Below are positions 1 through 15,461 of a stretch of DNA of 57,623 nt, in pieces; positions within the stretch are counted from its first letter, which is position 1; each line of letters opens with the position of its first letter. Origin of the DNA: a virus; the IMG/VR virus record IMGVR_UViG_3300045988_078563; one strand, 5' to 3'. The notes under the pieces are model-generated. The model had not been told where the DNA came from. It was given only the letters and a program-made list of their open reading frames with translations, and did no database searches. Position numbers and translations under genes: made by a program.

Positions 1-99
1 AAAAATTGGTACGGCTTTGCTATAACTCCGGAAGAAATTGAAAATGCTGTAGGATTTAATCCTAACCCGCTCACAGATAATAATTAATAAAAAAAAAAG
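1..99. repeat. Terminal overlap identical to 57525..57623 (circular closure); 1..87 duplicates the 3' end of polA
   Basis: Read base by base: aaaaattggtacggc...taataaaaaaaaaag is present at both ends, 99/99 identical. Confidence 0.95.
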
Positions 100-108
100 A
101 AATAATAG

Positions 109-137
109 TTGACATTCCATATATTATGTATTACAAT
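109..137 (+). promoter_or_regulatory. Early promoter copy P1 (TTGACA-N17-TACAAT)
   Basis: ttgaca 109-114, 17-nt spacer ending atgtat, tacaat 132-137, followed by atagtcaagttaagaaa box. Confidence 0.8.
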
Positions 138-189
138 ATAGTCAAGTTAAGAAAACAAATACATATTATATTATATGGAGGTAATTATT

Positions 190-696
190 ATGAACAATAT
201 GATGATTAAAGCAGAAATGAGCAGAGAAGATAAGTTATACTCAATGAAGGGAGATATGCTTATTGCAGAATGTGATAAGTTAGGAGTAAAAGTTAACTGC
301 AATAAGACAAGAACTCAGCTTAAAGAGAGCAAGTCTAAGGTTATAGAAAGAATTTTAGCGTTTGAAAGTGAAGTAGACAATAGCATATCTGTATCTGATG
401 AATCAGTAGTTGAAGATAATAATGATATAGCTAATACATCAGAAAAGAAAGAAACTAATACTATTGATTTAGATGTAGAATCATTTTGTGAAAAAAATCA
501 GTTAACTATGCATACAGCTGTCAAGAAGAATACTTATTATATTAAGTTAAATTCTAAGACTTTAAAATTAAGAGTAACAAAGAAAAATTATATATGTTAT
601 AAGTCAGGTAAGTATGATAATGGTACTTATGAAGAAAAGAGCAATAGAACAAAGTATGTATTAACATCTTTAACTGACTTATTAACTTTAGCATAG
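190..696 (+). CDS. Early hypothetical protein with N-terminal HeH/SAP-like (Rho_N-like) motif
   Basis: ORF track 175..696. TGGAGG sits 8 nt before ATG 190. Motif: LIAECDKLGVKVNCNKTRTQLKESKSKVIERIL. Confidence 0.6.
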   Translation: MNNMMIKAEMSREDKLYSMKGDMLIAECDKLGVKVNCNKTRTQLKESKSKVIERILAFESEVDNSISVSDESVVEDNNDIANTSEKKETNTIDLDVESFCEKNQLTMHTAVKKNTYYIKLNSKTLKLRVTKKNYICYKSGKYDNGTYEEKSNRTKYVLTSLTDLLTLA

Positions 697-709
697 AAAG
701 GAGTACTAT

Positions 710-1452
710 ATGAATGTTATTGATAATGTTGAACCTGGAAATAAGTGGGAATTTGATTCTAATGTAGCAGAGTGTTTTGAGAATATGCTACAGCGTTCTA
801 TTCCACAGTACAATTTAATGCGTGATTCTATAGCTGGATTGAGTAAGTATATACTTGAACATTCAAATAAACATATAGTTAGTATATTAGATATTGGATG
901 TTCTGATGGGTTAATGATTCAATCTTTAAAAGAAACATTAGATAAGTTATCTGATATAGATATTAGATATACCGGGTGTGATGTATCTGAACCTATGCTA
1001 ACTAAGGCAAAACATAGATTTTTGGATGAATTAATTGAAAAGAAAATTACTATTCTTAATTGTGATTTACGCACAGACTACCCGATTGGTCTGTTCGATA
1101 TAGTAACATCTTGCTTAACAATTCAGTTCACTCCAATTGAATATCGTCAGCACATAATTCAAAATATATATATGATTCATTGAGCAGTAAGAATGGAACA
1201 TTTATTATGGTAGAAAAGGTGCTGGGCAGTACAGATATTCTTAATCAGGCTATGGTGAGTAATTATTATGAAATGAAAAAGACTAATGGTTATTCAGAAG
1301 AGCAGATTGAAAGAAAGAGACTATCATTAGAGGGTGTATTAGTCCCAGTTACTAATGATATGAATATTAATCTATTAAAATCAGCTGGATTTAAGCACGT
1401 TGATGTATTTTGGAGATGGATGAATTTTACAGGTTATATTGCAATAAAGTAA
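710..1452 (+). pseudogene. cmoA: cmoA-like carboxy-S-adenosylmethionine (Cx-SAM) synthase, frame broken by a 2-nt excess in the (AT)5 tract 1164..1173 (ORFs 710..1183 and 1180..1452)
   Basis: Joined translation is collinear with E. coli CmoA along its full length. Matching blocks: [63 protein letters not shown]. Confidence 0.8.
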
Positions 1453-1462
1453 AGGAGATTAT

Positions 1463-2500
1463 ATGTTAGAACCTATTAAACAATTAGATTCAAATGGTCT
1501 TACTTGTATAGATTTATTTTGCGGGGCAGGTATAGGAGCATATGGAGTTAAAAGAGCAGGATATAATATTTTATGGTCTGTGGATAATGATGAAGATGCG
1601 GTAAAAACATATAATCTCAATATCGGAAATCACGCTATTTGTGCGGACATTCGTACAATTAAACCTGATGATATACCAGATTGTGATTTGATGATAGCTA
1701 CACCCGTATGTAAACCCTTTTCAGTTTGCGGAGCAAGAAGACTAACAAATGATAAAAAGTACGGAGATTTATTAGCTGAAACTATAAGATTGTTTAGTGC
1801 TAAAAAGCCAAAGGCATTATTTTTTGAAAATGTAGCTGGTATTGCTATGGGAGATAGCTTATCAATTTTTAAGGAATTTTGTCGATTGATTGAAAGTTAT
1901 GGTTATCATACTTATTGGAATATTGTAAATTCATTTGAACTTGGCGTGCCACAGCAAAGAGAGAGAGTATTTATGGTGGCTATTGCAGATTCTATAAAGA
2001 ATGAGTTTATAGTACCTAAATCAGTATGGCATAGAACAACACAGCGAGATGCTATTTATGATTTAAAAGATAAAACTATAGCAGATGTTAAAAATCATAA
2101 TACTGATAAATTGAGTTCTTCTATATATTCAGCATTTAGCAGTAATTTTAGACAGAATACTTGGGATGAACCTGCTAAAACTGTACTATCTTCTCAGCAA
2201 TCAGCTCTATTATATCCTGAACCTTATAAGATATCTGATAACTATAAGGAAGCACATAAGCAGATGTTGAATGATTCAAATTTCCCAAGAAGAATGTCTG
2301 TACGAGAACATCTTAGATTGCAGACTGTCGGGGATGATTTTTATTTCTCTGATGATATATCAATTAAAGAACAATATAATAGATGTTCAGGTGTGCCAAG
2401 TCTTGTAGCATATAAATATACTTGTGCTATTGCAGATTGTCTTTTAGGTAAAACATCAAATAGAGATTCATCTATTAAATATAGAAAGAAGTTGTTTTAA
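1463..2500 (+). CDS. dcm: DNA (cytosine-5) methyltransferase family enzyme with atypical motifs IV and X
   Basis: Motifs DLFCGAGIG (I), ATPVCKPFS (IV), FENV (VI), QQRERVF (VIII), RRMSVREHLRLQ (IX), CSGVP (X). RBS AAGGAG. Confidence 0.85.
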   Translation: MLEPIKQLDSNGLTCIDLFCGAGIGAYGVKRAGYNILWSVDNDEDAVKTYNLNIGNHAICADIRTIKPDDIPDCDLMIATPVCKPFSVCGARRLTNDKKYGDLLAETIRLFSAKKPKALFFENVAGIAMGDSLSIFKEFCRLIESYGYHTYWNIVNSFELGVPQQRERVFMVAIADSIKNEFIVPKSVWHRTTQRDAIYDLKDKTIADVKNHNTDKLSSSIYSAFSSNFRQNTWDEPAKTVLSSQQSALLYPEPYKISDNYKEAHKQMLNDSNFPRRMSVREHLRLQTVGDDFYFSDDISIKEQYNRCSGVPSLVAYKYTCAIADCLLGKTSNRDSSIKYRKKLF

Positions 2501-2622
2501 TGAAAATTTATATATTAGGTAAAATAACAGGAACAACAGATTATATACAAAGATTTGAGAGAGCAGAAAAAGCTCTCTCAAAATATATAGTAATCAATAC
2601 AGCTAAAGTAAATATGCAGTAG
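2500..2622 (+). pseudogene. 40-codon remnant resembling the N-terminus of DUF4406 / nucleoside 2-deoxyribosyltransferase-like proteins
   Basis: MKIYILGKITGTTDYIQRFERAEKALSKY..., taATG overlap with the MTase stop, truncated by TAG. Contains the 9-bp GC-rich hairpin 2556..2580. Confidence 0.35.
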
Positions 2623-2654
2623 AAAATAATTATAAAATAATTTTTGAAAAGTAA

Positions 2655-2683
2655 TTGACTTTTTATATTTTATGTATTACAAT
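2655..2683 (+). promoter_or_regulatory. Early promoter copy P2 (TTGACT-N17-TACAAT)
   Basis: ttgact 2655-2660, 17-nt spacer ending atgtat, tacaat 2678-2683. Confidence 0.7.
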
Positions 2684-2714
2684 ACAAGAGAAATAAATAG
2701 AAAGGAGAAAGACA

Positions 2715-4091
2715 TTGAATTATGATGAATTTCTAAAAACAAAAATAGAGCAATTCAAGCCTTGCGGTTTTGATTGTAATCCCTCAAATGAAAATCTATT
2801 TGATTTTCAAAGAGCTATTGTGAAGATAGCACTTAAAAGAGGAAAATCAGCATTGTTTCTTGACACTGGACTTGGAAAAACTATATGTCAGTTATCTTGG
2901 GCTTATGAAGTGTATAAGCATACTGGAAAGAATGTACTTATACTTGCCCCACTTGCTGTATCAGTGCAGACAAAAAGAGAGGGGGAAAAGTTTGGTATTG
3001 ATGTAAATATTTGTAGAACGCAAGAAGATGTAAAAGAAGGCATAAATATTACTAACTATGAAATGTTAGAACATTTTAATGCTGATGAATTTATAGGAAT
3101 TGTGCTTGATGAAAGCTCAATACTAAAATCATTTTCCGGCAAGACTACAAAGGCATTGATTGATAAGTTTAGAGCAACAGAATATAAACTTGCTTGTTCT
3201 GCCACTCCAGCACCAAATGATTATGAAGAATTGGGTAATCATTCAGAGTTTTTAGGAGTAATGACAAGAACAGAAATGCTTGCTACTTATTTTGTACACG
3301 ATGGTGGAAACACAAGTAAATGGAGATTAAAAGGACACGCAGAAGAACAATTTTGGCATTGGGTATCTAGTTGGGCAAGCGTGATGAAAACTCCAGAAGA
3401 TATAGGTTATAATGGTGATAAATATAAATTGCCTGCCTTGAATGTGCAAGTTGTAAAAGTAGCAGGAGAAACAAAGAGAGGAAAGCTGATTCCTAGTGTT
3501 GTAACAGATTTACAAGATAGGCGAGAAGCAAGAAAAGAAAGTCTTAGTAAAAGAGTATCAAAGTGTGCAGAACTTATAAAAGCTAATAATATGGAAAATT
3601 GCTTGATTTGGTGTGATTTTAATGATGAAGGAAATGCACTTGAAAAAGCAATTCCGAACGCTGTACAGGTTGCAGGTTCAGATACAAATGAACACAAAGA
3701 AAAATCATTATTAGGATTTTCAACAGGAGATATAAAGTTCCTTGTGAGCAAACCGAAGATTGCTGGATTTGGTATGAACTGGCAGAATTGTAACAATATT
3801 ATATTCTGTGGTATATCAGATAGTTATGAAAAATACTATCAAGCTGTAAGAAGATGTTACAGATTCGGGCAGATAAAAGAAGTAAATGTGTACATTGTTA
3901 TAAGTACAAGAGAATTACCAGTTTATAATAATATTCTTGAAAAAGGCAGACTTGCTGATGAAATGAATAAAAAAATGGTTGAAATTGCATCAAAATATCT
4001 TGAAGATGAAATAAAGAACACGACAAGAATGACGGATGAATATGATGCAGAAATAAAAATGAAACTACCAGAATGGGAGGAAATGGAATGA
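2715..4091 (+). CDS. SF2 (DEAD/SNF2-like) helicase, methylase-associated type
   Basis: Walker A LDTGLGKT, DExx box VLDESS, SAT-like CSATP, C-terminal RRCYRFGQ. TTG start after AAGGAG. Confidence 0.75.
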   Translation: MNYDEFLKTKIEQFKPCGFDCNPSNENLFDFQRAIVKIALKRGKSALFLDTGLGKTICQLSWAYEVYKHTGKNVLILAPLAVSVQTKREGEKFGIDVNICRTQEDVKEGINITNYEMLEHFNADEFIGIVLDESSILKSFSGKTTKALIDKFRATEYKLACSATPAPNDYEELGNHSEFLGVMTRTEMLATYFVHDGGNTSKWRLKGHAEEQFWHWVSSWASVMKTPEDIGYNGDKYKLPALNVQVVKVAGETKRGKLIPSVVTDLQDRREARKESLSKRVSKCAELIKANNMENCLIWCDFNDEGNALEKAIPNAVQVAGSDTNEHKEKSLLGFSTGDIKFLVSKPKIAGFGMNWQNCNNIIFCGISDSYEKYYQAVRRCYRFGQIKEVNVYIVISTRELPVYNNILEKGRLADEMNKKMVEIASKYLEDEIKNTTRMTDEYDAEIKMKLPEWEEME

Positions 4092-4984
4092 AAGGACAAA
4101 GTGCAGTAAATGTTGAAAATCAGTTAATCACAGATAAATATGCTTTATATAATGGTGATAGCTGTGAGATTATGAAAGGAATACCTGATAATAGTATTCA
4201 CTTTTCTATATTCTCTCCGCCTTTTGCAAGTCTTTATACCTATTCAAATAGCGACAGAGACTTGGGAAACTGTAGAACAACAACAGAATTTTATGAGCAT
4301 TTTAAGTTTATAGTTTCTGAATTGTACAGAATTACAATGCCCGGAAGATTAGTAAGTTTCCATTGTATGAACTTACCAACAAGTAAAGAAAGAGATGGAT
4401 TTATAGGAATTGAAGATTTCAGAGGACTTCTTATAAAGTTATTTCAAGATAGTGGATTCATCTATCATTCAGAAGTTTGTATATGGAAAGACCCAGTAAT
4501 CGCAATGCAGAGAACAAAGGCACTTGGACTACTTCACAAGCAGTTGAAAAAAGATAGTTGTATGAGTAGGCAAGGAATACCCGATTATCTTGTAACAATG
4601 AGAAAACCAGGGGAGAACCCAGAAAGATGTGAGCATACTAATGAATCATTCCCAGTCAGCAAGTGGCAGAATTATGCCAGTCCAATTTGGATGGATATAA
4701 ATCCAAGTGACACATTACAGGCAAGAAGTGCTAGAGAAGAGAAAGACGAAAAGCATATATGTCCTTTACAGTTGCCTGTTATAGAAAGAGCCATTGAACT
4801 TTGGACTAACCCGAATGACATTGTATTTACTCCATTTCTTGGAATTGGCTCAGAATGTTATAAGGCAATAGAAATGGGCAGACGAGCAATGGGAATTGAA
4901 CTCAAAAAGAGTTATTATGAGCAGGCTTGTAAAAATGTAGCAAGTGTGCCATTTAATAGCTTATATAAGAAAGGTTTATTTTAA
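4088..4984 (+). CDS. Beta-class DNA methyltransferase (N4-cytosine or N6-adenine)
   Basis: SPPF catalytic motif (FSIFSPPFASLY) N-terminal to the SAM motif FTPFLGIGSE. GGGAGG before ATG 4088. Overlaps the helicase stop. Confidence 0.8.
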   Translation: MKGQSAVNVENQLITDKYALYNGDSCEIMKGIPDNSIHFSIFSPPFASLYTYSNSDRDLGNCRTTTEFYEHFKFIVSELYRITMPGRLVSFHCMNLPTSKERDGFIGIEDFRGLLIKLFQDSGFIYHSEVCIWKDPVIAMQRTKALGLLHKQLKKDSCMSRQGIPDYLVTMRKPGENPERCEHTNESFPVSKWQNYASPIWMDINPSDTLQARSAREEKDEKHICPLQLPVIERAIELWTNPNDIVFTPFLGIGSECYKAIEMGRRAMGIELKKSYYEQACKNVASVPFNSLYKKGLF

Positions 4985-4998
4985 GGAGGATTTAATTA

Positions 4999-6093
4999 AT
5001 GAAAGTAGTATCAAGCAGAATGAAAGAAGCAGTAAACAAAGCAATTAAAGGAGCAGGATTTAACAATCTTATTCCTATTACCTCAATGATTGGTATTAAA
5101 TTATCAGATGGAAAGCTGAGATTGCTCACAACAGATATGACTAATACATTATGTATTATCATTGACAAAGTAGCTGGAGAAGATATGGATATTACAGTTG
5201 ATGCAGATAAGTTTGGAAAATTGATTGCAAAGACAACCTCAGAGGATATTGACTTATCTGTAAAAGATGATGTACTTTTTGTAAAAGCAAACGGAACTTA
5301 TAAGATTCCATTGATTTCAGATGAGGAAGGACTTATCTCATTCCCGGATATTAAGATGATGGATGATAAAAATGTACAGTGTAAGACAAAGCTGTCAAGC
5401 GTTATGCAGGCTTATAATATCAATAAATCAGCACTTGCAAAAACACTTGATAATCCAGCATTAACTGGTTACTATTGTGGAGATACTGTTATTAGTACAG
5501 ATGCGAATGTAATCACATTTAATGGATTTAAGATGTTTGATAATGAAGAACCTATTCTTATTTCTGCTCAGCAGATGCAGTTATTGACACTGAATACAAA
5601 GGAAGATATTGTGGTTTTTATAGGAAGAGCAAGTATTCAGTTCGTGACAGAGGATGTTGTGATTGATAGTGCATTGATGGAAGGAATTGAAGATTTCCCA
5701 GCTAACGAGGTAAACGCTTATCTTGATGAAGCATTTACATCTTCTTGCAAAGTACCAAAGGATTTACTTCTTTCTGTACTTGATAGACTTGCATTATTTA
5801 TTGAGCCTTATGATAAGAATGGAGCATATTTTACATTCGGCAGAAAGGGTATCAATATTCACAGCAAGAAGGATGCTTCAACAGAGACTATCAACTATGT
5901 GGAAAGCAAGGACTTTGAACCATTCGTATGTTGTGTTGATATTCCAATGTTAAAGGAACAGTTGCAGGCTAACCCGGACGATACTGTTAAGATTTGCTAT
6001 GGAAATGAAAATGCTTTAAAGATTGAAAGCGGAAAAGTAACACAGGTTATAGCATTGCTTGAAGATGAAGACCTTGACAATATAACTGAATAA
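4999..6093 (+). CDS. dnaN: DNA polymerase sliding clamp (beta, DnaN-like)
   Basis: 364 aa. DnaN-like N-terminus (LIPITSMIGIKLSDGKLRLLTTDMTN) and an aedFP-like SFPDI segment. Confidence 0.7.
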   Translation: MKVVSSRMKEAVNKAIKGAGFNNLIPITSMIGIKLSDGKLRLLTTDMTNTLCIIIDKVAGEDMDITVDADKFGKLIAKTTSEDIDLSVKDDVLFVKANGTYKIPLISDEEGLISFPDIKMMDDKNVQCKTKLSSVMQAYNINKSALAKTLDNPALTGYYCGDTVISTDANVITFNGFKMFDNEEPILISAQQMQLLTLNTKEDIVVFIGRASIQFVTEDVVIDSALMEGIEDFPANEVNAYLDEAFTSSCKVPKDLLLSVLDRLALFIEPYDKNGAYFTFGRKGINIHSKKDASTETINYVESKDFEPFVCCVDIPMLKEQLQANPDDTVKICYGNENALKIESGKVTQVIALLEDEDLDNITE

Positions 6094-6158
6094 GTATATA
6101 CTTTATATTGCAAACGAATTGAAAGACATTACTGTTTTTGCCTCTTTCTTAATGAATG

Positions 6159-6190
6159 CACCCTTATAGAAATATAGGGGTGTATTTTTT
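6159..6190 (+). terminator. Rho-independent terminator
   Basis: cacccttata/tataggggtg stem (one G-U), gaaa loop, then tatttttt. Confidence 0.75.
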
Positions 6191-6211
6191 ATATAAATTT
6201 TAAAAATATGC

Positions 6212-6240
6212 TTGACATTTCTATGTATATGTATTACAAT
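6212..6240 (+). promoter_or_regulatory. Early promoter copy P3
   Basis: ttgaca 6212-6217, N17, tacaat 6235-6240, then ataatcaagttaagaaa. Confidence 0.85.
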
Positions 6241-6287
6241 ATAATCAAGTTAAGAAATACATACATACATAGAAAGAGGTAATTGAT

Positions 6288-6485
6288 ATGAAAGGTTATG
6301 CAATATATTTTACATGGAATGATGGAACAGAAGATAGCTTTAATGTAGCAGATGCTAAAGAAAGAGATTTTAATATTAAAGACATGATAGCTAGAAAAGA
6401 ATTTAAAGCTGTTAGTTATTGTAGAATATATGCTAGTGGAGAATACGGAAAAAAGAGTAGTAGTTTTATAAAGGAGGAAAATTAA
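6288..6485 (+). CDS. Hypothetical early protein
   Basis: ORF track; AGAGGT RBS; first gene after P3. Confidence 0.6.
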   Translation: MKGYAIYFTWNDGTEDSFNVADAKERDFNIKDMIARKEFKAVSYCRIYASGEYGKKSSSFIKEEN

Positions 6486-6659
6486 ATGACAAAAAGAGCA
6501 ACTAAAGCCTTGCAAATATTAGAATCTAATCATTGTATGATTAATAGCTTATGTACGAAAGAAGAATTAAAGAGCTATAAGGATTTTGATTTTGTGGAAT
6601 ATCTAAAGAGGGCTGTTAAAAGTTATGGTAATGATAATGTGGAGGTGATTAGGCGGTGA
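6486..6659 (+). CDS. Hypothetical small protein (57 aa, below the track cutoff)
   Basis: ATG 6486 directly after the upstream stop. GTGA overlap with the next gene. MTKRATKALQILESNHC... Confidence 0.5.
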   Translation: MTKRATKALQILESNHCMINSLCTKEELKSYKDFDFVEYLKRAVKSYGNDNVEVIRR

Positions 6660-7453
6660 GTAGAAGACTAATAAATCTAATAAATAACAATAAACCACAG
6701 CTTCCCGCAAATAAGAAATTCTTATCTGATGTTATGAGTTGTATTGAAAGAATGGAACAAGAAGGAAGAAGAAAAGGAAGTAATTATTATAAACCTTCTT
6801 CTCTTCACTGTATGCGGAATATGTACTTCACTCGTACTAAAGCTCCTACAGACCCACAACCTACAGAATATAATTCTATAGGTATGGCGGATACAGGTAC
6901 AGACAGACACGAAAGAATACAGAATGTATTATTACATATGCAGGAGATGGGATATGATTGGAAATATCTTGATGTAGCTGAGTATGTTAAACAGAAGCAG
7001 AAGTTCGGAAAATGTAAGTCTTTGATTGTAAAGGGTACACAGGGAGCAGAAACACATCTTATAGATACTGTGTTAAATTTATCTTTCAGATGTGATGGCA
7101 TTATAAGGAGAATATCTACAAATGAGGATTATCTTTTTGAATTTAAAAATGTAGTATCCTTCAAATATAATCAACTTGATAATCATTGCTTAGAACAACA
7201 TCACAATCAGGTTATATGTTATTGTACTGCTTTAGATTTGGATAAGGCTTTCGTGACATATGAGAATAGAGATATATGCACACTTGAAGTTCCTGAAGTA
7301 TTTGAAGTAACTCAGGATATGAAAAACTGGCTTGTGAACTATATAAGTGAATGTGAAGGTTATGTAGAAAGAATGATTGCACCACCTAAAACAGAAGATA
7401 CAAGAAACTGTAAATGGTGCAGATATAAGTCAATATGTAGAAAGGCAGGATAA
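6656..7453 (+). CDS. PD-(D/E)XK exonuclease, Cas4/RecB-like with Fe-S cysteines
   Basis: D...EFK core (RCDGII...LFEFKN), QxxxY (QHHNQVICY), N-terminal Cys plus C-terminal CKWCRYKSIC. Confidence 0.75.
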   Translation: MSRRLINLINNNKPQLPANKKFLSDVMSCIERMEQEGRRKGSNYYKPSSLHCMRNMYFTRTKAPTDPQPTEYNSIGMADTGTDRHERIQNVLLHMQEMGYDWKYLDVAEYVKQKQKFGKCKSLIVKGTQGAETHLIDTVLNLSFRCDGIIRRISTNEDYLFEFKNVVSFKYNQLDNHCLEQHHNQVICYCTALDLDKAFVTYENRDICTLEVPEVFEVTQDMKNWLVNYISECEGYVERMIAPPKTEDTRNCKWCRYKSICRKAG

Positions 7454-7455
7454 AA

Positions 7456-7719
7456 ATGCGTAATTATGTTTTATTTGATGTTCAAGATATGGATGTAGAT
7501 TCAGAATTAGAGAATCTTGTAGAAATACCAAACTCTTATGGACATGAACCATACTTAATAATGTCAAAGATGACATTTAAGCTTATTAAAATGCTATCCA
7601 AAGGATATGATGATAAAGATAATTCATGGGTATATGATGGAGGCTTGGGCTGGGTACCATATAAATTTCAAATTGCAATTGATAAAAGTATACCTTTTGG
7701 GGAGGTGAATGTGAAATAA
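7456..7719 (+). CDS. Hypothetical protein
   Basis: ORF track; tight packing with neighbours. Confidence 0.55.
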   Translation: MRNYVLFDVQDMDVDSELENLVEIPNSYGHEPYLIMSKMTFKLIKMLSKGYDDKDNSWVYDGGLGWVPYKFQIAIDKSIPFGEVNVK

Positions 7720-8207
7720 TGATATATATAGGAATTGACCCAGGAAAAAATGGTGGTATTGCTGTGATAAATGATAAGTTTCCTAAACCTGTTAATATAA
7801 CGGTATATAAATATTCAGATGATGATTTGATAGATGTTATTGACGTATGCACAAAAGGTTCTTCCATAGCAGTACATAGAGATGAAGAAATTAAATGTGT
7901 ACTTGAAAAAGTAAATGCAATGCCTGGACAGGGTGTAGTATCAATGTTTAACTTTGGACAGAACTTCGGTTTTATTCAGGGTGTACTTAAAGCATATGAA
8001 ATACCATTTGAATTAGTACCACCCCAGAAGTGGAAAAAAGAGTTTAGTGTAACAAGTGATAAGAATACATCTATTGAAGTAGCTAAGAGATTATTTCCTG
8101 GTGTTAATCTAAAGGCAACAGACAGATGCAGAAAAGACCACGACGGAATGGCAGAGGCATTATTAATTGCAGAGTATGGAAGGAGGCATTATAATGGAAC
8201 ATTATAA
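7719..8207 (+). CDS. ruvC: RuvC-like Holliday junction resolvase
   Basis: N-terminal MIYIGIDPGKNGGIAV, and C-terminal D..AEALLIA acidic motif. Confidence 0.8.
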   Translation: MIYIGIDPGKNGGIAVINDKFPKPVNITVYKYSDDDLIDVIDVCTKGSSIAVHRDEEIKCVLEKVNAMPGQGVVSMFNFGQNFGFIQGVLKAYEIPFELVPPQKWKKEFSVTSDKNTSIEVAKRLFPGVNLKATDRCRKDHDGMAEALLIAEYGRRHYNGTL

Positions 8208-8352
8208 TAACATTATGCACATATACAAAGGAAAATCTGATAATGAATTTTATCAATTGTTGAGTCTTGATGGTTTATATGGAAGATTTATGCGATTAAA
8301 TGATAGGATTGTATATACGAAACATCTAATAGATATGGAATTTTGGGTATAA
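8194..8352 (+). CDS. Hypothetical small protein
   Basis: AAGGAGG 7 nt before ATG 8194. The track start 8167 lies inside ruvC. Confidence 0.45.
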   Translation: MEHYNNIMHIYKGKSDNEFYQLLSLDGLYGRFMRLNDRIVYTKHLIDMEFWV

Positions 8353-8367
8353 TAAGGAGACATTATA

Positions 8368-8925
8368 ATGGCAAGTCGTAGAGAAGGAATAAAAGCAAAT
8401 AACGAACAACCAAAAACTGCTGAATCTATAATGAAAAAGGTGGATGGTATAAGTGATACAATAAAAAGAATATCAGATGGACTTGTAAAAAAATATTGTG
8501 ATGATTTGGACAACTTTATGCAAGTTACAAGAGATATAATAACAAGAAATGACGGCATAACAGATATACAGTTGGAACAGGCTATTCTTGAATTAGCAAA
8601 TATATTATATTTTACAGGTTCAGCACAGGAAGATTTAGGTATTAAAGAAGATACTTGCAAAGCTATCCGACAGGAAGTATATTCAAAGGCAAGGGAGCAA
8701 GCAACCGGAAAGACAGTTGCGGATAAAACGGCACAGGCGGAGCTTATAGCACAAGCAGAAACAATGACACTTGCTATATATTCAAGAGCTTATAAAAAAG
8801 TAAAACTGAGAATGGATGCAGGATATGAGATGTTGAACAGCTTAAAAAAGGTGATGAATAAGCGAATATCCGAGTTGGAATTATCTAACAGCAGATATAT
8901 TAATCATTCAGATAATAACGATTAA
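8368..8925 (+). CDS. Hypothetical protein
   Basis: ORF track; AAGGAG RBS. Confidence 0.6.
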   Translation: MASRREGIKANNEQPKTAESIMKKVDGISDTIKRISDGLVKKYCDDLDNFMQVTRDIITRNDGITDIQLEQAILELANILYFTGSAQEDLGIKEDTCKAIRQEVYSKAREQATGKTVADKTAQAELIAQAETMTLAIYSRAYKKVKLRMDAGYEMLNSLKKVMNKRISELELSNSRYINHSDNND

Positions 8926-8938
8926 AGGAGATGAATAT

Positions 8939-9292
8939 ATGTCTGTATGTAATAGAGATTGTTTTAATTGTACCTATACAGATTGTATATGTGATGAACC
9001 TTCTGACGATTTAGCTTTAGATAGACAGCTTGATTTAGAAGCTAAAATAAATATTACACCGGCGGCTAGAGCTTGTAAAAAATACAGGAAAACAGAAAAG
9101 GGTAAGCAAGCAGTATATAGGTGGAATCATTCAGATAAACATAAAGAAATAATGAGAAATTATAATAAATCTGAAAAAGGAAAGGAACGCTCAAAACGAT
9201 TTGAACAGACAGAGGCTAGAAAGGCATACAGAAGAGAATGGCAAAGAAAAAAGAGATTAAAGTTAAAGGAGGAAAAAGAATTATGTATATAA
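8939..9292 (+). CDS. Hypothetical Cys-rich / basic repeat protein
   Basis: N-terminal CNRDCFNCTYTDCIC, then repeated K-x-EKGK segments. Confidence 0.55.
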   Translation: MSVCNRDCFNCTYTDCICDEPSDDLALDRQLDLEAKINITPAARACKKYRKTEKGKQAVYRWNHSDKHKEIMRNYNKSEKGKERSKRFEQTEARKAYRREWQRKKRLKLKEEKELCI

Positions 9293-9387
9293 CCCCATTC
9301 ATTTTAGGTGTAATTGTAGGTGCATTTAGTATGCTAGTATCAATTGTTATACTGGCATTAATCATAACCGGAAAGAAAGGAAAATAA
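9283..9387 (+). CDS. Small single-pass membrane peptide (34 aa)
   Basis: AAGGAGG at 9266-9272. MYITPFILGVIVGAFSMLVSIVILALIITGKKGK. Confidence 0.45.
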   Translation: MYITPFILGVIVGAFSMLVSIVILALIITGKKGK

Positions 9388-9388
9388 T

Positions 9389-9523
9389 ATGAGCGAAGCA
9401 GAATATATGGAAGATGGAGCAGATTATTTAGAGGAAGGATGTCAAAGACAGACTTGTGATGGCTGTATGGCTTACGATTACTGTATGATAAAAGGACAAG
9501 AGGATGAGCAATGGGAAGATTGA
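9389..9523 (+). CDS. Small acidic Cys-containing protein (44 aa)
   Basis: GAAAGG before ATG 9389. Overlaps the next start. Confidence 0.4.
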   Translation: MSEAEYMEDGADYLEEGCQRQTCDGCMAYDYCMIKGQEDEQWED

Positions 9524-9771
9524 TTGTTGCTGATACTTTAATTAAAGATTTAGGTTATTTATATACAAAAAATCGTATTCCCGTTGATATGAGAGCAAAA
9601 CAAACATTATCAACAATTATGGAGCAACCAACAGCTTACAATGTAAATAAGGTTGTGGAACAGTTGGAAGAAATCAAGGCTTATATGCTATATGAAAATA
9701 TGAACGCTGATGTTAAGTGGATTGATAGGGCAATAGAGATAGTAAAAGCAGGAGGAAATGTAAATGAGTAA
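9511..9771 (+). CDS. Hypothetical protein
   Basis: ORF track. Confidence 0.55.
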   Translation: MGRLIVADTLIKDLGYLYTKNRIPVDMRAKQTLSTIMEQPTAYNVNKVVEQLEEIKAYMLYENMNADVKWIDRAIEIVKAGGNVNE

Positions 9772-10783
9772 TCTTGATTTGATTATAAAAGACTTAAATA
9801 AGAAAATGAAAGTAGGAAATATTCAGCTAGGTGTGGATTTTCAGGAAGTACAGAAGATTCCTTTTTCGTCATGTAGATTGAATTATATGACCTATGGCGG
9901 AATACCTATAGGAAGAATAGCTGAATTTTTTGGTACAGATGGAAGTGGTAAGACAACAACTGCCATTGATATAGCTGGACAGACACAGAAGTTATTCCCA
10001 GATAAGAAAGTGTTGTTTGTAGATATAGAACATACATTTGACCCAGTATGGGCGACAAAGCTGGGATTAAATTGTGATGATTTGCTTTACTTAGACCCCG
10101 ATAGTATGGGAGCAGAAGAAGTATTTAATATTATAATAGATATAATAGACAGTAGAGAAATAAGTCTTTGTATATTAGATTCTATTGGAGCTATGGTATC
10201 TATGCAGGCAAATGAAAAGGAAATTGGTGAGAGAACATATGGTGGAATCAGTATGGCTTTAACTGAATTTACTAAGAAGATAACCCCCATATTAGCTAGA
10301 ACACAGGCGAGCTTTATCGGTATAAATCAAGCGAGAGATGATATGAATAGCCCTTATGGAGGGACTACCACAACAGGTGGGAAGTGTTGGAGACACGGCT
10401 GTAGCACAAGACTTGAATTCAGAAAAGGAAACTATATTGATGAGAAAGGTAATAATCTTTCCAGAGCTTGTGAAAATCCTGCTGGAAATATAGTTAATGT
10501 GTCCTTAATTAAGTCTAAAGTTGTTAGACCGGATAGAAAAGTAGGCTTCTATACTCTTAAATATCTGGAAGGAATTGATTATATTTCAGATGCAGTTGAT
10601 GTAGCTATTAAATTAGGACTTGTTAATCAAGCAGGTTCTTGGTTCACATTAGTAGAACCTGAAACTGGAGAAGTTAAAGAGAAATTTCAAGGCAAGCCTA
10701 AACTTGTTGAATATTTAAAAGATAATATAGACGTATATACGCAGTTATCTAATGATATTCAGACATTGTTAGAAGAAGAGTAG
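9764..10783 (+). CDS. recA: RecA-family recombinase
   Basis: GGIPIGRIAEFFGTDGSGKTTTAI (Walker A). LDSIGAMV and FIGINQARDDM blocks are collinear with RecA. Confidence 0.85.
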   Translation: MSNLDLIIKDLNKKMKVGNIQLGVDFQEVQKIPFSSCRLNYMTYGGIPIGRIAEFFGTDGSGKTTTAIDIAGQTQKLFPDKKVLFVDIEHTFDPVWATKLGLNCDDLLYLDPDSMGAEEVFNIIIDIIDSREISLCILDSIGAMVSMQANEKEIGERTYGGISMALTEFTKKITPILARTQASFIGINQARDDMNSPYGGTTTTGGKCWRHGCSTRLEFRKGNYIDEKGNNLSRACENPAGNIVNVSLIKSKVVRPDRKVGFYTLKYLEGIDYISDAVDVAIKLGLVNQAGSWFTLVEPETGEVKEKFQGKPKLVEYLKDNIDVYTQLSNDIQTLLEEE

Positions 10784-10800
10784 TTATATACAATTTACTA

Positions 10801-10838
10801 AAGTTATTCACATTAAATTGTGGATAACTTTTTTATTT
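10801..10838 (+). terminator. Rho-independent terminator
   Basis: aagttattcaca/tgtggataactt 12-bp stem (one G-U), 6-nt loop, ttttatttat. Confidence 0.8.
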
Positions 10839-10855
10839 ATTTCACATAAAATCAT

Positions 10856-10884
10856 TTGACATTTTTATGTATATGTATTACAAT
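10856..10884 (+). promoter_or_regulatory. Early promoter copy P4
   Basis: ttgaca 10856-10861, N17, tacaat 10879-10884, plus the caagttaagaaa box. Confidence 0.85.
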
Positions 10885-10925
10885 ATAATCAAGTTAAGAA
10901 ATAAAAAAAAACAGGAGGACAAAAA

Positions 10926-11111
10926 ATGAAATTAGCAGAAATCAAGGATTTAGATAGGGAAGTATTAACAATCGAGGAACTTAATGATTTAGAATGTGAA
11001 GAATTTGTGGAAAGAGTGGAGTGTCTTGGTGCTTCCGAAAACAATAAATATTATTGGTATGATGTAACATTAACAGATGATACTCGTATAGATGTATATA
11101 CAGAAAAGTAG
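10926..11111 (+). CDS. Hypothetical acidic early protein
   Basis: ORF track; AGGAGG RBS. Confidence 0.6.
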   Translation: MKLAEIKDLDREVLTIEELNDLECEEFVERVECLGASENNKYYWYDVTLTDDTRIDVYTEK

Positions 11112-11118
11112 GTTTAAT

Positions 11119-11655
11119 ATGAAAGAAATATTTAAACAAATACATAGATATAAAGAACAAGATTTTGAAGAGGGTAAATCGTTTGAGTTTACCCTTGATG
11201 GAAAAAGAAATGAATTAAATACAGAAGATTATATATGTCCTCCAGTCCAGAAAATGGGAGTAGGAAAGTCATATAAAATAACTGTTAAAAAATATATGAC
11301 AGAACCAGCTACAGCCAATTTTGATTTTCAGGATAAGTGGAATAATGGAGAGCCTATGCCGCTTTGTATTATGCAAGGTGAAGTTATAAAAGAAACAAGA
11401 GGAATGTATTATATGAGTTTGCAAGGCAAAGCAGAACCTACATTAAAATGTCTTGTATGTGGTAAGACATTAACTAATCCAATTTCTAAACTTTATGGAA
11501 TAGGTCCAGAATGTTCTGAAAAAGTAGGGTTAATAAGAATAGAAAGTGAGGAGGAAGCAAAAGAAAAATTGAAACACATTATGGAACAGATAGATGATAT
11601 AAGCTGGACGGGTTGGGTAATAAAATCCGCAATAAAAGAATGGGAGGAAATATAA
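11119..11655 (+). CDS. Hypothetical protein with DUF6011-like zinc-ribbon motif
   Basis: CLVCGKTLTNPISKLYGIGPEC (11449..11514). The start is uncertain (11092 or 11119). Confidence 0.55.
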   Translation: MKEIFKQIHRYKEQDFEEGKSFEFTLDGKRNELNTEDYICPPVQKMGVGKSYKITVKKYMTEPATANFDFQDKWNNGEPMPLCIMQGEVIKETRGMYYMSLQGKAEPTLKCLVCGKTLTNPISKLYGIGPECSEKVGLIRIESEEEAKEKLKHIMEQIDDISWTGWVIKSAIKEWEEI

Positions 11656-11656
11656 A

Positions 11657-12115
11657 GTGAGTATGAATGTTAATGTGTATCAGGATAAAGAAAAATTTAA
11701 AGTAACTCTATCTGATGAATATACAACTAAACTTATAAAATGGTACGATAATCTATCAGATGTATACGATTTTGCAAAGGAGATGTTTAATAGATATAAT
11801 ACGTTTGTTTCGATTAAGTTTAGAAAAAATTTAATGCAGGACGAACTGACCGGAACACAGGAGGAGGTATCTACTGCATATGAGCTTATAAACACAGCCA
11901 TAGAATTATTGGAGGATTTAGATGAAGAATATAGAGTGAGTGGTTTTTTGATGAATTGGGAAAAGCTTAGAGCTATATCTTATGCAAGGCAAGATATAAA
12001 TGAGGCTATTAGAGAGCATAAAAAAGCATCATATTTTATTGAACATAAAAATAGCCTGTCTCCTAAACATATACTTGATTGTATAGAGATAACTGAAAAG
12101 AGACTTAAAGATTAG
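11657..12115 (+). CDS. Hypothetical protein
   Basis: ORF track; GGGAGG RBS before GTG. Confidence 0.55.
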   Translation: MSMNVNVYQDKEKFKVTLSDEYTTKLIKWYDNLSDVYDFAKEMFNRYNTFVSIKFRKNLMQDELTGTQEEVSTAYELINTAIELLEDLDEEYRVSGFLMNWEKLRAISYARQDINEAIREHKKASYFIEHKNSLSPKHILDCIEITEKRLKD

Positions 12116-12307
12116 ATGCCTGCGTTAAATCAAGAAGCGTTAGGATAACAACATATAAATATATAAGTGACATTATCACATCTTATTTGAAGGATAGAGA
12201 AAAAAAAAGAAATATAAAATGATTCAATTATTTGTTTGGTCTGTGTTGATGATTATTGCAGGTTGGTTTATTGGGAAATATAATTAGGTGAAAGGAGGAA
12301 TCTACAA

Positions 12308-12433
12308 ATGCCAGTGATTAGAACAAAGAAAGGTTATAAGTGGGGAACAACAGGAAAAGTATATCCCACTAAGAAAGAAGCCTTGAAACAAGGTAGAGCT
12401 ATAGAAGCCAATAAAAGTAGGAAAAATAGATAA
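12308..12433 (+). CDS. Small basic protein (41 aa)
   Basis: AAAGGAGG 7 nt upstream. MPVIRTKKGYKWGTTGKVYPTKKEALKQGRAIEANK. Confidence 0.5.
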   Translation: MPVIRTKKGYKWGTTGKVYPTKKEALKQGRAIEANKSRKNR

Positions 12434-12636
12434 TGAGTAGAGAATAATGTGAAGCTAGATTATTAGAAAAATGTAAAGAAATGAGTGATATTTTGAAAGA
12501 ATATGATAAAGAAGCTGACTATTTATCGATAGTAATATATTCAAAAGATAATTATTTTTTCTATAACTAATAATTATTGGGAAGGTCATCCTATAATAGA
12601 TTTTTTTTAAATTTGATAAGAAAGAGGTGTGCTCGG

Positions 12637-12972: not shown

Positions 12973-12974
12973 AA

Positions 12975-13142
12975 TGCTAACAGAATATGAATACGATTAT
13001 TTACAAAGTAGATTTGATAATAAGCTTAAAACTGATATCACTAATAAAGCTCAAGCATATAATTCTGGTGTATTAGCGTGTAAATCAATTTTATCAAGTT
13101 TTTATCATAAGACTAAAGCTAAGGAGGAGATTAAAGAATGAT
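12975..13142 (+). CDS. Hypothetical small protein (55 aa)
   Basis: GGAGGAG RBS; ATGA overlap with the next gene. Confidence 0.5.
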
Positions 13143-13827: not shown

Positions 13828-13882
13828 GTACCAGATAATTTTGATGTACGAAGATGATGTATTGTTAGAAAGGAGAATATAT

Positions 13883-14059: not shown

Positions 14060-14078
14060 AAATCAGAAAGGAGCAGCA

Positions 14079-15150: not shown

Positions 15151-15158
15151 GAGAGGAT

Positions 15159-15455: not shown

Positions 15456-15461
15456 AATAAC

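What the first reader, a model, noticed from the sequence alone, without database searches (positions are those of the whole stretch)
1700..2398. The C5-MTase carries non-canonical catalytic-loop and cofactor-pocket motifs (TPVCK instead of PPCQ; CSGVP instead of GNxVP)
Seen: motif I is DLFCGAGIG. Motif IV is ATPVCKPFS, with catalytic Cys83 at codon 1709..1711 followed by Lys84. Motif VI is FENV, VIII is QQRERVF and IX is RRMSVREHLRLQ. Motif X is RCSGVPS, with Ser309 at 2387..2389 where the near-invariant Asn is expected.

Established: C5-MTases almost always have Pro-Cys-Gln in motif IV and Gly-Asn in motif X, and both line the cofactor methyl/target cytosine pocket. To my recollection, the engineered switch to Cx-SAM use in M.MpeI was at a conserved C-terminal Asn (N374K).

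Inference: replacing that Asn with a smaller Ser, and placing a Lys next to the nucleophilic Cys, is the kind of change that could accommodate and charge-match a carboxymethyl group. This fits the adjacent cmoA-like gene. The alignment was done by eye, so the residue equivalences need confirmation.
Basis: partly seen in the sequence, partly recalled or inferred. Interest (0 to 1): 0.65.

Follow-up and report, generated by a model that had tools for sequence, protein, structure and literature searches.

The report
Variant phage DNA carboxymethyltransferase candidate
This phage cytosine methyltransferase has lost two pocket residues that normally fit a methyl group and sits next to a carboxy-SAM synthase gene, so it probably adds carboxymethyl rather than methyl groups to DNA, using a different active-site design from the one natural enzyme of this kind described so far.

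Summary
The 345-aa C5-MTase (1463..2500) reads ATPVCKPFS in motif IV (Cys83, Lys84) and RCSGVPS in motif X, at the stated coordinates. Both strings are invariant in 119 of 120 homologues down to 60% identity.

The canonical Gly-Asn of motif X has collapsed to a single Ser. HMMER aligns Ser309 to the Asn. A profile-profile alignment deletes the Asn position instead.

Natural DNA C5-carboxymethyltransferases are already published: CmoX of Synechococcus phage S-B43, Nat Commun 2025. That family is defined by SPPC plus Arg350 at the Asn position. This enzyme meets neither criterion and is closer to M.HaeIII.

- **Context supports carboxy-SAM use:** In a set deduplicated at about 90%, all 27 RCSG enzymes with Lys or Thr after the Cys lie next to cmoA.
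- **Ligase link:** In 60-70% identical relatives a CmoY-like amide ligase sits between cmoA and the MTase, in the same order as in S-B43.
- **Lys84 is not decisive:** It is neither universal in the clade nor specific to it.
- **Arg307 was overlooked:** This invariant residue aligns with Arg347 of the CmoX-type enzymes compared.
- **This copy may be inactive:** The window's own cmoA carries a +2 frameshift that six relatives lack.

Verdict: a probable second lineage of carboxymethyltransferase, a new variant of a known kind, with no biochemical test yet.

The parts
109..137 (+). Sigma-70-like promoter (TTGACA, 17 nt, TACAAT) ahead of the orf173-cmoA-MTase gene string
   Evidence: Best consensus match in 1..2800, 11 of 12 positions. 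A near-identical element lies at 2655..2683 ahead of the next gene block. This is a consensus match only; the total count of promoter-like sites is no higher than in shuffled sequence.
175..696 (+). 173-aa ORF of unknown function, first gene of the string
   Evidence: No Pfam, NCBIfam or PHROG hit. It is conserved in the same position in L002 and L003.
710..1183 (+). cmoA-like gene, N-terminal fragment (157 aa), ended early by a frameshift
   Evidence: TIGR00740 (CmoA) is the best NCBIfam hit, E = 9.5e-18, profile positions 14-148. Pfam finds class-I methyltransferase domains.
1163..1174 (+). Frameshift site in cmoA: two extra bases in an (AT)n run
   Evidence: The window reads CAAAATATATATATG where six relatives read CAGA--ATATATATG. 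The relatives encode an intact CmoA of about 246 aa, for example L002 4504..5244 and L003 5250..5990.
1180..1452 (+). cmoA-like gene, C-terminal fragment (90 aa) in the other reading frame
   Evidence: TIGR00740, E = 5.6e-20, profile positions 153-239 of 239. It continues directly from the first fragment.
1463..2500 (+). C5-cytosine DNA methyltransferase homologue (345 aa), candidate carboxy-SAM-dependent carboxymethyltransferase
   Evidence: PF00145, E = 4e-58. TIGR00675 dcm, 167.9 bits. AlphaFold2 model with pLDDT 87.9 and pTM 0.89. Best structural match is M.HaeIII 1DCT at TM 0.78; 8YF3 (CmoX) ranks 13th. The gene starts 11 nt after the cmoA stop codon.
1511..1537 (+). Motif I, DLFCGAGIG (cofactor binding)
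   Evidence: Read from the sequence. D17 to G23 and G25 are invariant in the family; position 24 varies between Ile and Val. The motif also occurs in canonical relatives, so it is not diagnostic.
1697..1723 (+). Motif IV, ATPVCKPFS: catalytic Cys83 (1709..1711), Lys84 (1712..1714) in place of Gln, Val82 in place of the usual Pro
   Evidence: Invariant in 119 of 120 homologues. The catalytic loop 83-96 has pLDDT below 50, as expected for a mobile loop.
1823..1834 (+). Motif VI, FENV
   Evidence: F121, E122, N123 and V124 are invariant.
1952..1972 (+). Motif VIII, QQRERVF
   Evidence: Q164, R166 and R168 are invariant.
2288..2323 (+). Motif IX, RRMSVREHLRLQ
   Evidence: Aligns with HaeIII RRLTVRECARVQ.
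2381..2401 (+). Motif X variant, RCSGVPS: Arg307 (2381..2383), Cys308, Ser309 (2387..2389). The Gly-Asn pair is collapsed to one Ser
   Evidence: R307, C308, S309, G310, P312 and S313 are invariant. RCSG marks a clade spanning 35-100% identity that is usually next to cmoA.
2500..2622 (+). Remnant (40 aa) of a DUF4406 / nucleoside 2-deoxyribosyltransferase-like gene
   Evidence: The gene is 94 aa in L002 (phrog_355, E = 2e-28). The window lacks 130 nt inside it.

Best explanation
The gene at 1463..2500 encodes a DNA cytosine-C5 transferase that probably uses carboxy-S-adenosylmethionine (Cx-SAM) instead of SAM. It would write 5-carboxymethylcytosine (5cxmC) into the phage genome, presumably as protection against host restriction.

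The chemistry would be the standard C5-MTase mechanism. Cys83 attacks C6 of a flipped-out cytosine, the C5 carbanion attacks the transferable carbon of the cofactor, and beta-elimination releases the enzyme (inferred from the conserved motifs I, IV, VI and VIII).

The cofactor switch is attributed to a rebuilt pocket around the transferable group.
- **Asn wall removed:** The Gly-Asn of motif X is collapsed to one Ser (shown).
- **Gln replaced:** The Gln after the catalytic Cys is replaced by Lys (shown).
- **Charge supplied:** The positive charge that binds the carboxylate comes from Arg307, from Lys84, or from both (inferred).

This is a different arrangement from SpCmoX. There an Arg occupies the Asn position and a small Ser follows the Cys.

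Cx-SAM is meant to come from the CmoA gene immediately upstream. In this particular genome that gene is frameshifted, so this copy of the system may be inactive unless the shift is an assembly error. The window lacks the CmoY-like ligase found in some relatives, so the end product here would be plain 5cxmC rather than an amide derivative.
For: 1. **Gene linkage.** The MTase starts 11 nt after the cmoA stop. In loci deduplicated at about 90% identity, RCSG enzymes with Lys after the Cys are next to cmoA in 20 of 20 cases, and those with Thr in 7 of 7. The nearest canonical Gly-Asn relatives with adequate flanks have cmoA in 0 of 2 cases.
2. **The neighbour is CmoA-like.** TIGR00740 is the best NCBIfam hit. 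The intact L002 copy scores 152 bits. The CmoA of cyanophage S-B05 scores 115.6 bits; S-B05's CmoX is identical to the crystallised S-B43 enzyme.
3. **Ligase in relatives.** In 60-70% identical relatives a PP-loop amide ligase lies between cmoA and the MTase (L004, L013, L023-L027, L029, L030). It is homologous to SpCmoY (27% identity over 250 aa, E = 4e-23). The gene order cmoA-cmoY-MTase matches S-B05 and S-B43. CmoY acts on 5cxmC in DNA (PMC12783734).
4. **Both changed positions line the pocket.** In M.HhaI, Q82A and N304A cut methyl transfer, and N304A above all speeds transfer of larger groups (PMC3526304). A positive charge at the Asn position gives carboxymethyltransferase activity in M.MpeI N374K, M.MedI N377K and natural SpCmoX R350.
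5. **The same pattern recurs in other CmoA-linked C5-MTases.**
   - At the Asn position: Arg in SpCmoX, PaBG and L033; Gly in Staphylococcus phage SPbeta-like.
   - After the catalytic Cys: Ser, Cys, Ala, Lys or Thr in the CmoX-type and RCSG enzymes examined.
6. **Tandem arrangement.** L033 carries one cmoA followed by an RCSG-type MTase and then a SPPC/GR CmoX-type MTase.
7. **Purifying selection.** TPVCK and RCSG are invariant over 119 of 120 homologues.
8. **Host.** The endolysin has Glucosaminidase and CW_7 domains, pointing to a Gram-positive host. From my own knowledge, such hosts usually lack CmoA, which would explain why the phage carries its own.
Against: - No biochemical or structural test of the cofactor was possible. 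The AlphaFold2 model gave no coordinates and no ligand, so whether Arg307 or Lys84 reaches the carboxylate is not shown.
- RCSG enzymes that keep Pro-Cys-Gln often have no cmoA within about 6 kb: 4 of 7 with adequate flanks. Vibrio phages ICP1 and 1.161.O add two more with only 3-kb flanks. RCSG alone therefore may not mean Cx-SAM use.
- PVCK occurs with a canonical Gly-Asn and no cmoA nearby (P0124).
- The enzyme fails both sequence criteria used to define CmoX, SPPC and Arg350.
- The cmoA in this window is frameshifted.
- The locus counts are not phylogenetically independent.
Confidence: 0.68

Rival explanations
1. It is an ordinary SAM-dependent 5-methylcytosine methyltransferase whose motif IV and X variants are lineage quirks. 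The neighbouring CmoA has a separate job, such as draining host SAM to blunt SAM-dependent defences or modifying tRNA.
For: - RCSG with Pro-Cys-Gln occurs without a nearby cmoA in L032/L053, L035, L042, L044, ICP1 and Vibrio phage 1.161.O.
- PVCK occurs with a canonical Gly-Asn and no cmoA.
- All catalytic motifs for C5 attack are intact.
- The CmoX paper itself raises SAM depletion by CmoA as an open question.
Against: - A CmoY-like ligase sits between cmoA and this MTase type in several relatives. It makes sense only if the MTase produces a carboxyl handle.
- Within the clade, 27 of 27 enzymes with Lys or Thr after the Cys are linked to cmoA.
- Loss of the Gln and the Asn each cut methyl transfer 16- to 30-fold in M.HhaI.
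- No CmoB-like gene was found among the window ORFs scanned.
Confidence: 0.17
2. In this particular genome the module is decaying. cmoA is a pseudogene, so the MTase has no cofactor supply in a host that lacks CmoA and is functionally silent, whatever its ancestral chemistry.
For: - A +2 frameshift in an (AT)n run is unique to the window among seven aligned relatives.
- Just downstream, the DUF4406-like gene carries a 130-nt internal deletion relative to L002 and L018.
- The genome avoids GATC, GCGC, GGCC and CATG almost completely, which is an alternative defence that does not depend on modification.
Against: - The MTase ORF itself is intact, and the 98% match reported for L001, L002 and L018 shows no sign of relaxed constraint.
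- A 2-nt error in a dinucleotide repeat could be an assembly or sequencing artefact.
- Read data were not available to check.
Confidence: 0.35
3. The enzyme is cofactor-promiscuous. It uses both SAM and Cx-SAM and produces a mixture of 5mC and 5cxmC, depending on how much Cx-SAM is available.
For: - Wild-type M.MedI shows weak carboxymethylation, and the N374K and N377K variants still methylate.
- An enlarged pocket with small Ser and flexible Lys need not exclude SAM.
- Clade members without a nearby cmoA would still be useful if they can methylate.
Against: - SpCmoX accepts only Cx-SAM.
- In HhaI, pocket enlargement weakened SAM and SAH binding and slowed methyl transfer.
- There are no direct data for this family.
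Confidence: 0.15

Closest known systems
CmoX, the DNA cytosine C5-carboxymethyltransferase of Synechococcus phage S-B43 (PDB 8YF3; Yang et al., Nat Commun 2025, PMC12783734)
   Same: - A phage C5-MTase homologue encoded next to a phage CmoA.
- Relatives of this enzyme carry a CmoY-like amide ligase in the same cmoA-cmoY-MTase order.
- The motif X Asn and the motif IV Gln are both absent.
- An Arg three positions before the Asn site (Arg347 in SpCmoX, Arg307 here) is shared.
   Different: - Sequence similarity is low: phmmer E = 1.8e-12 over the N-terminal half only, and about 21% identity in the structural alignment.
- Motif IV is TPVC-K rather than SPPC-S.
- No Arg stands at the Asn position; the site is a Ser or is deleted.
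- The enzyme would not pass the published SPPC + Arg350 filter.
- It is closer to M.HaeIII than to CmoX and falls in a separate clade of a rough neighbour-joining tree.
- The target sequence is unknown; SpCmoX targets GC.
Engineered carboxymethyltransferases M.MpeI N374K and M.MedI N377K
   Same: The same principle applies: the motif X Asn is altered so that a positive charge can pair with the Cx-SAM carboxylate.
   Different: - Those enzymes carry a single Asn-to-Lys substitution at the Asn position in CG-specific enzymes.
- Here the Asn site is Ser or deleted, and the candidate charges are Arg307, upstream in motif X, and Lys84 on the catalytic loop.
- This enzyme is natural, not engineered.
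M.HhaI Q82A/Y254S/N304A and M.HpaII Q104A/N335A, sterically engineered for extended cofactors (PMC3526304)
   Same: The same two conserved positions, the motif IV Gln and the motif X Asn, are changed to open the pocket around the transferable group.
   Different: The engineered enzymes use Ala at both positions and carry no charge matching. They were designed for synthetic propargylic cofactors, not for Cx-SAM.
M.HaeIII (GGCC; PDB 1DCT) and the related Bacillus phage phi3T / SPbeta-type C5-MTases
   Same: These are the closest solved structure and the closest cultured-phage homologues. phmmer gives E = 3e-35 over residues 15-323, including the target-recognition domain; TM is 0.78 and identity about 30-33%.
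   Different: - HaeIII has the canonical PCQ and GNAVP motifs and uses SAM.
- The window contains only one GGCC, against 30 expected, so a GGCC target is unlikely.

Membership tests
C5 cytosine DNA methyltransferase (PF00145 / TIGR00675 dcm superfamily) | Profile match above the curated cut-off | tested here: met
   PF00145 scores 197.8 bits against a cut-off of 22. TIGR00675 scores 167.9 bits against 100.65.
C5 cytosine DNA methyltransferase (PF00145 / TIGR00675 dcm superfamily) | Catalytic Pro-Cys dipeptide in motif IV, usually Pro-Cys-Gln | tested here: inconclusive
   The Cys is present (Cys83). The residue before it is Val rather than Pro, with the Pro one position earlier, and Lys follows instead of Gln.
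C5 cytosine DNA methyltransferase (PF00145 / TIGR00675 dcm superfamily) | Motifs I (FxGxG), VI (ENV) and VIII (QxRxR) | tested here: met
   DLFCGAGIG, FENV and QQRERVF are present; the key residues F19, G21, G23, E122-V124, Q164, R166 and R168 are invariant in the family.
C5 cytosine DNA methyltransferase (PF00145 / TIGR00675 dcm superfamily) | Gly-Asn in motif X | tested here: not met
   The sequence is RC-S-GVP, one residue shorter and without Asn.
CmoX as defined by Yang et al. 2025 (PMC12783734) | C5-MTase homologue encoded next to a phage cmoA | tested here: met
   cmoA fragments lie at 710..1452 and the MTase at 1463..2500. The adjacency is conserved in relatives.
CmoX as defined by Yang et al. 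2025 (PMC12783734) | SPPC motif (S95 P96 P97 C98) | tested here: not met
   The window has TPVC. More distant clade members have GFPC.
CmoX as defined by Yang et al. 2025 (PMC12783734) | Arg at the position of HhaI Asn304 (SpCmoX Arg350) | tested here: not met
   The aligned residue is Ser309 by HMMER or a gap by hhalign. Arg307 aligns with Arg347, not Arg350.
CmoX as defined by Yang et al. 2025 (PMC12783734) | Cx-SAM-dependent formation of 5cxmC in DNA | not testable with these tools
   This needs an enzyme assay or LC-MS of modified DNA.
CmoX as defined by Yang et al. 2025 (PMC12783734) | Frequent association with a CmoY-type ATP-dependent amide ligase | tested here: inconclusive
   No such ligase was found in the window. 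One lies between cmoA and the MTase in 60-70% identical relatives. It is homologous to SpCmoY at E = 4e-23 and its best NCBIfam hit is asparagine synthase.
CmoA, carboxy-SAM synthase (TIGR00740) | Profile match above the equivalog cut-off | tested here: not met
   The intact relative L002 scores 152.4 bits against a cut-off of 193.3. It is still the best hit by far, and higher than the 115.6 bits of the S-B05 CmoA, from a cyanophage whose CmoX is identical to the crystallised S-B43 enzyme.
CmoA, carboxy-SAM synthase (TIGR00740) | Intact open reading frame | tested here: not met
   The gene is split into 710..1183 and 1180..1452 by two extra bases in an (AT)n run. It is intact in six relatives.

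The most novel reading that the evidence does not exclude
A second, independently evolved lineage of natural DNA cytosine-C5 carboxymethyltransferases exists. It derives from HaeIII-like methyltransferases rather than from the SPPC/Arg350 CmoX lineage and is widespread in gut and rumen phages of Gram-positive hosts. It recognises the carboxy-SAM carboxylate through a shortened motif X (Arg-Cys-Ser-Gly), with help from a Lys or Thr after the catalytic Cys. The published sequence definition of CmoX therefore misses a whole class of these enzymes. Cultured Vibrio phages such as ICP1, which carry the Pro-Cys-Gln form without their own cmoA, may draw on host carboxy-SAM.
Probability: 0.55. Interest if true: 0.72.

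Novelty: new variant of a known kind. Interest (0 to 1): 0.6.

Why it matters
5-carboxymethylcytosine was called an unnatural base until December 2025. Only one natural enzyme family has been described for it, defined by SPPC plus Arg350. If this family also writes 5cxmC, three things follow.

1. The modification would extend to human-gut and rumen phages of Gram-positive bacteria.
2. Cofactor switching in C5-methyltransferases would have evolved at least twice with different residues. That gives enzyme engineers a second template for carboxymethylation tools such as DM-seq and CMD-seq, probably with a different target sequence.
3. Motif-based censuses of CmoX would be undercounting.

It would also give a simple rule for annotation: a C5-MTase next to cmoA that lacks the motif X Asn, and usually also the motif IV Gln, is a candidate carboxymethyltransferase.

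Tried and rejected
- **Asp41 in motif II as a natural counterpart of the M.MpeI E45D mutation.** Rejected: Asp at this position is common in ordinary Gly-Asn relatives.
- **GGCC as the target, by analogy with HaeIII.** Unlikely: the window has 1 GGCC against 30 expected. The target remains unknown.
- **Programmed frameshift in cmoA.** Rejected as the default: six relatives have a plain in-frame gene and lack the two extra bases.
- **A CmoY-like ligase or CmoB elsewhere in the window.** phmmer with two CmoY seeds found nothing. Pfam scans of 16 window ORFs found replication, recombination, sigma-factor and lysis functions but no ligase or CmoB. Not every ORF was scanned.
- **Close relatives among cultured phages.** Megablast found no match. 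The best tblastn hits are about 33% identical.
- **Host inference from bacterial genomes.** Only two loci were found. One is an Aneurinibacillus megaplasmid carrying cmoA plus an RCSG MTase.
- **Residue-level 3D check.** The structure tools return confidence values and fold matches but no coordinates. Distances from Arg307 and Lys84 to the cofactor could not be measured.
- **Overlap with the published CmoX set.** A search of the CmoX paper's supplementary files for these contigs and motifs found nothing.
- **Published work on the ICP1 MTase.** None was found in the library.
Full report
**What is in the sequence**

The finding lies in a 345-aa ORF at 1463..2500 on the + strand. It is a C5-cytosine DNA methyltransferase homologue: PF00145 at E = 4e-58 over profile positions 2-315 of 324, and TIGR00675 at 167.9 bits.

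- DLFCGAGIG at 1511..1537.
- ATPVCKPFS at 1697..1723, with Cys83 at 1709..1711 and Lys84 at 1712..1714.
- FENV at 1823..1834.
- QQRERVF at 1952..1972.
- RRMSVREHLRLQ at 2288..2323.
- RCSGVPS at 2381..2401, with Ser309 at 2387..2389.

HMMER alignment to M.HaeIII (1DCT, E = 3e-35, full length) and to M.HhaI puts Lys84 opposite the Gln of Pro-Cys-Gln. It puts Ser309 opposite the Asn of GNAVP, with the conserved Gly missing.

An AlphaFold2 model built from 61 family members is confident (pLDDT 87.9, pTM 0.89). The exception is the catalytic loop 83-96, which is normally mobile. The model's best structural match is HaeIII at TM 0.78.

**The variants are selected and rare**

A search of 5.8 billion proteins returned 284 relatives at E ≤ 1e-20. 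The best 120 are 60-93% identical. ATPVCKPFS occurs in 119 of them, the other being a fragment, and RCSG[VI]PS is invariant. The mean column identity of the family alignment is only 69%.

In an exhaustive HMMER search of 1.84 billion cluster representatives, only 10 of the 150 best hits carry RCSG, all of them the closest relatives. Nearly all of the others in which motif X could be read have Gly-Asn. Gln follows the catalytic Cys in the large majority.

A proper alignment does not restore Asn or Gln, and the variants are not common.

**A caveat on residue equivalence**

The family is one residue shorter than canonical enzymes between the conserved Tyr and the Val-Pro of motif X.
- HMMER deletes the Gly and aligns Ser309 with the Asn.
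- A profile-profile alignment against three CmoX-type enzymes aligns Ser309 with the Gly and deletes the Asn/Arg350 column. It also aligns Arg307 with Arg347, which is invariant in those three enzymes.

The safe statement is that the Gly-Asn pair has collapsed to a single Ser.

**What is already known**

A paper from December 2025 (PMC12783734) showed three things in Synechococcus phage S-B43:
- CmoA makes carboxy-SAM.
- A C5-MTase homologue, CmoX, transfers the carboxymethyl group to cytosine in GC sites.
- An asparagine-synthetase-like ligase, CmoY, then adds glycine.

In the crystal structure (8YF3), Arg350 replaces HhaI Asn304 and contacts the carboxymethyl group. The authors' census required SPPC plus Arg350.

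I recovered the SpCmoX sequence from phage S-B05, whose protein is identical to 8YF3. It reads GSPPCSAFS and TERVGRMVPP. The window enzyme meets neither criterion and is only distantly related to CmoX: E = 1.8e-12 over the N-terminal half, and rank 13 by fold.

The two pocket positions are well documented.
- In M.HhaI, Gln82, Tyr254 and Asn304 crowd the transferable group.
- Q82A and N304A reduce methylation, and N304A above all speeds transfer of larger groups (PMC3526304).
- M.MpeI N374K and M.MedI N377K gain carboxymethyltransferase activity through a proposed salt bridge to the carboxylate (PMC12015181).

**Genomic context**

Upstream lies a cmoA-like gene, but it is split into 710..1183 and 1180..1452. 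These fragments match TIGR00740 positions 14-148 and 153-239. The cause is two extra bases in an (AT)n run at 1163..1174. Six relatives lack them and encode an intact protein of about 246 aa.

The intact L002 copy scores 152 bits on the CmoA model. That is below the curated cut-off of 193, but above the 115.6 bits of the S-B05 CmoA. S-B05 is the cyanophage whose CmoX is identical to the crystallised S-B43 enzyme.

I collected 60 or more related loci from viral, metagenome and genome collections and scored them with local phmmer searches. RCSG in motif X marks a clade spanning 35-100% identity. After deduplication at about 90% identity, the counts are:

| Motif X | Residue after catalytic Cys | With cmoA | Without cmoA (≥3 kb flanks) |
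|---|---|---|---|
| RCSG | Lys | 20 | 0 |
| RCSG | Thr | 7 | 0 |
| RCSG | Gln | 3 | 4 |
| Gly-Asn (nearest canonical relatives L049, P0124) | Gln or Lys | 0 | 2 |

Two Vibrio phages (ICP1 and 1.161.O) also have RCSG with Gln and no cmoA, but only 3-kb flanks were examined. Comparing Lys/Thr (27:0) with Gln (3:4) gives a hypergeometric p of 7.5e-4. The loci are not phylogenetically independent.

The most telling observation concerns the ligase. In relatives at 60-70% identity (L004, L013, L023-L027, L029, L030), a PP-loop ligase of about 290 aa lies between cmoA and the MTase. It is homologous to SpCmoY (27% identity, E = 4e-23), and its best NCBIfam hit is asparagine synthase. The gene order matches the cyanophage system.

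Two further loci fit the picture.
- One contig (L033) has cmoA followed by an RCSG MTase and then a SPPC/GR CmoX-type MTase.
- An Aneurinibacillus megaplasmid has cmoA followed by an RCSG MTase.

**Interpretation**

The best reading is that this family is a second lineage of carboxy-SAM-dependent cytosine-C5 carboxymethyltransferases. A rough neighbour-joining tree places the RCSG clade among HaeIII-like Gly-Asn enzymes, far from the SpCmoX clade. It has no support values.

Other CmoA-linked C5-MTases show the same two-site pattern.

| Enzyme | Motif IV | Motif X | Note |
|---|---|---|---|
| SpCmoX | PCS | GR | |
| PaBG | SPPCK | GR | |
| L033 (second MTase) | PCC | GR | |
| L006 | PCA | GR | |
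| Staphylococcus phage SPbeta-like | PCQ | VVGGVI | Asn position is Gly |

Loss of the Asn is therefore the common denominator.

Replacement of the Gln is frequent, but it is neither necessary nor sufficient. Lys84 is one of several solutions (Lys, Thr, Ser, Ala, Cys). It also occurs with a canonical Gly-Asn and no cmoA nearby (P0124).

It is invariant across the whole RCSG clade and aligns with Arg347 of the CmoX-type enzymes compared. Ordinary enzymes have Gln, Met or Ile at that position. I consider Arg307, alone or together with Lys84, the likeliest partner for the carboxylate. This is inference, because no coordinates were available.

**State of this particular copy**

Three features suggest the module may be decaying in this genome:
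- The cmoA frameshift.
- A 130-nt deletion in the DUF4406-like gene just downstream.
- Near-total avoidance of GATC, GCGC, GGCC and CATG across the genome.

The two lesions could instead be assembly errors. The MTase ORF itself is intact.

The endolysin domains (Glucosaminidase and CW_7) point to a Gram-positive host. From my own knowledge, such hosts generally lack CmoA. A real frameshift would then leave the enzyme without its cofactor.

No CmoY-like ligase was found in the window, so the predicted product here is plain 5cxmC.

**Verdict**

- **Observation:** confirmed.
partly supported. Carboxy-SAM use is well supported by context. The role given to Lys84 is overstated. Arg307, the broken cmoA and the published precedent were all missed.
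- **Novelty:** a new variant of a known kind.
- **Decisive test:** LC-MS of DNA modified by the enzyme in E. coli with and without cmoA, together with R307, K84 and S309 mutants.

Noticed in passing
window 1..57623: The genome avoids short palindromes to an extreme degree. GATC occurs 0 times (178 expected), GCGC 0 (27), GGCC 1 (30) and CATG 14 (180). GC content is 32.5%, and G is much more frequent than C on the + strand, which carries nearly all the long ORFs.
   Followed up: partly
window 1163..1174: cmoA is split by two extra bases in an (AT)n run. Six relatives, including relatives whose MTase protein is 98% identical, have the intact gene. It could be a real slipped-strand mutation or an assembly error.
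   Followed up: yes
window 2500..2622: The DUF4406 / nucleoside 2-deoxyribosyltransferase-like gene after the MTase has a 130-nt internal deletion relative to L002 and L018. A 40-aa stub remains.
   Followed up: yes
L033 5225..9127: One cmoA is followed by three tandem C5-MTase homologues with different pocket designs: FPCT + RCSG, SPPCC + GRAVPP (CmoX type), and YPCK + AGRGIVVP.
   Followed up: partly
L061 9232..10311 (Aneurinibacillus megaplasmid) and L047 2280..3314: Downstream of cmoA and an RCSG MTase lies a CmoX-like paralogue in which the catalytic Cys is replaced (SPPS in L061, SPPA in L047). It is presumably catalytically dead.
   Followed up: no
L068 4421..6496 (protein P0127); also P0138: These RCSG MTases carry an intein with a homing-endonuclease domain. 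It is inserted directly before the catalytic Cys (FP|CFP...HN|CQP), so the catalytic Cys is the +1 residue of the intein.
   Followed up: no
L072 2995..4014 (Vibrio phage ICP1, MW794141.1 57477..58496) and L071 2995..4017 (Vibrio phage 1.161.O): These cultured Vibrio phages encode PCQ + QYERCSGIPP enzymes annotated as hypothetical protein or C5 methylase. No cmoA lies within 3 kb, and Vibrio does not appear among the organisms named in the summary of the 85 phage records with a CmoA match. They could serve as experimental entry points.
   Followed up: partly
L073 3983..5682 (Staphylococcus phage SPbeta-like, KT429160.1): cmoA lies directly upstream of a gene annotated 'hhaIM'. Its product keeps SPCQ, but motif X reads VVGGVI, with Gly where Asn is expected. 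This is a third pocket variant next to cmoA.
   Followed up: no
L075 (Erwinia phage Y3) and L074 (Alcaligenes phage Afa-NA1): In Erwinia jumbo phage Y3, cmoA is followed by an asparagine-synthase-like gene, with no C5-MTase within 5 kb. In the Alcaligenes phage, cmoA stands alone near a DNA adenine methylase. What accepts the carboxymethyl group in these phages is unclear.
   Followed up: no
window 40950..41909 and 54038..54111: The endolysin has Glucosaminidase and CW_7 domains, suggesting a Gram-positive host. A single tRNA-Gln (anticodon TTG) is also present.
   Followed up: no
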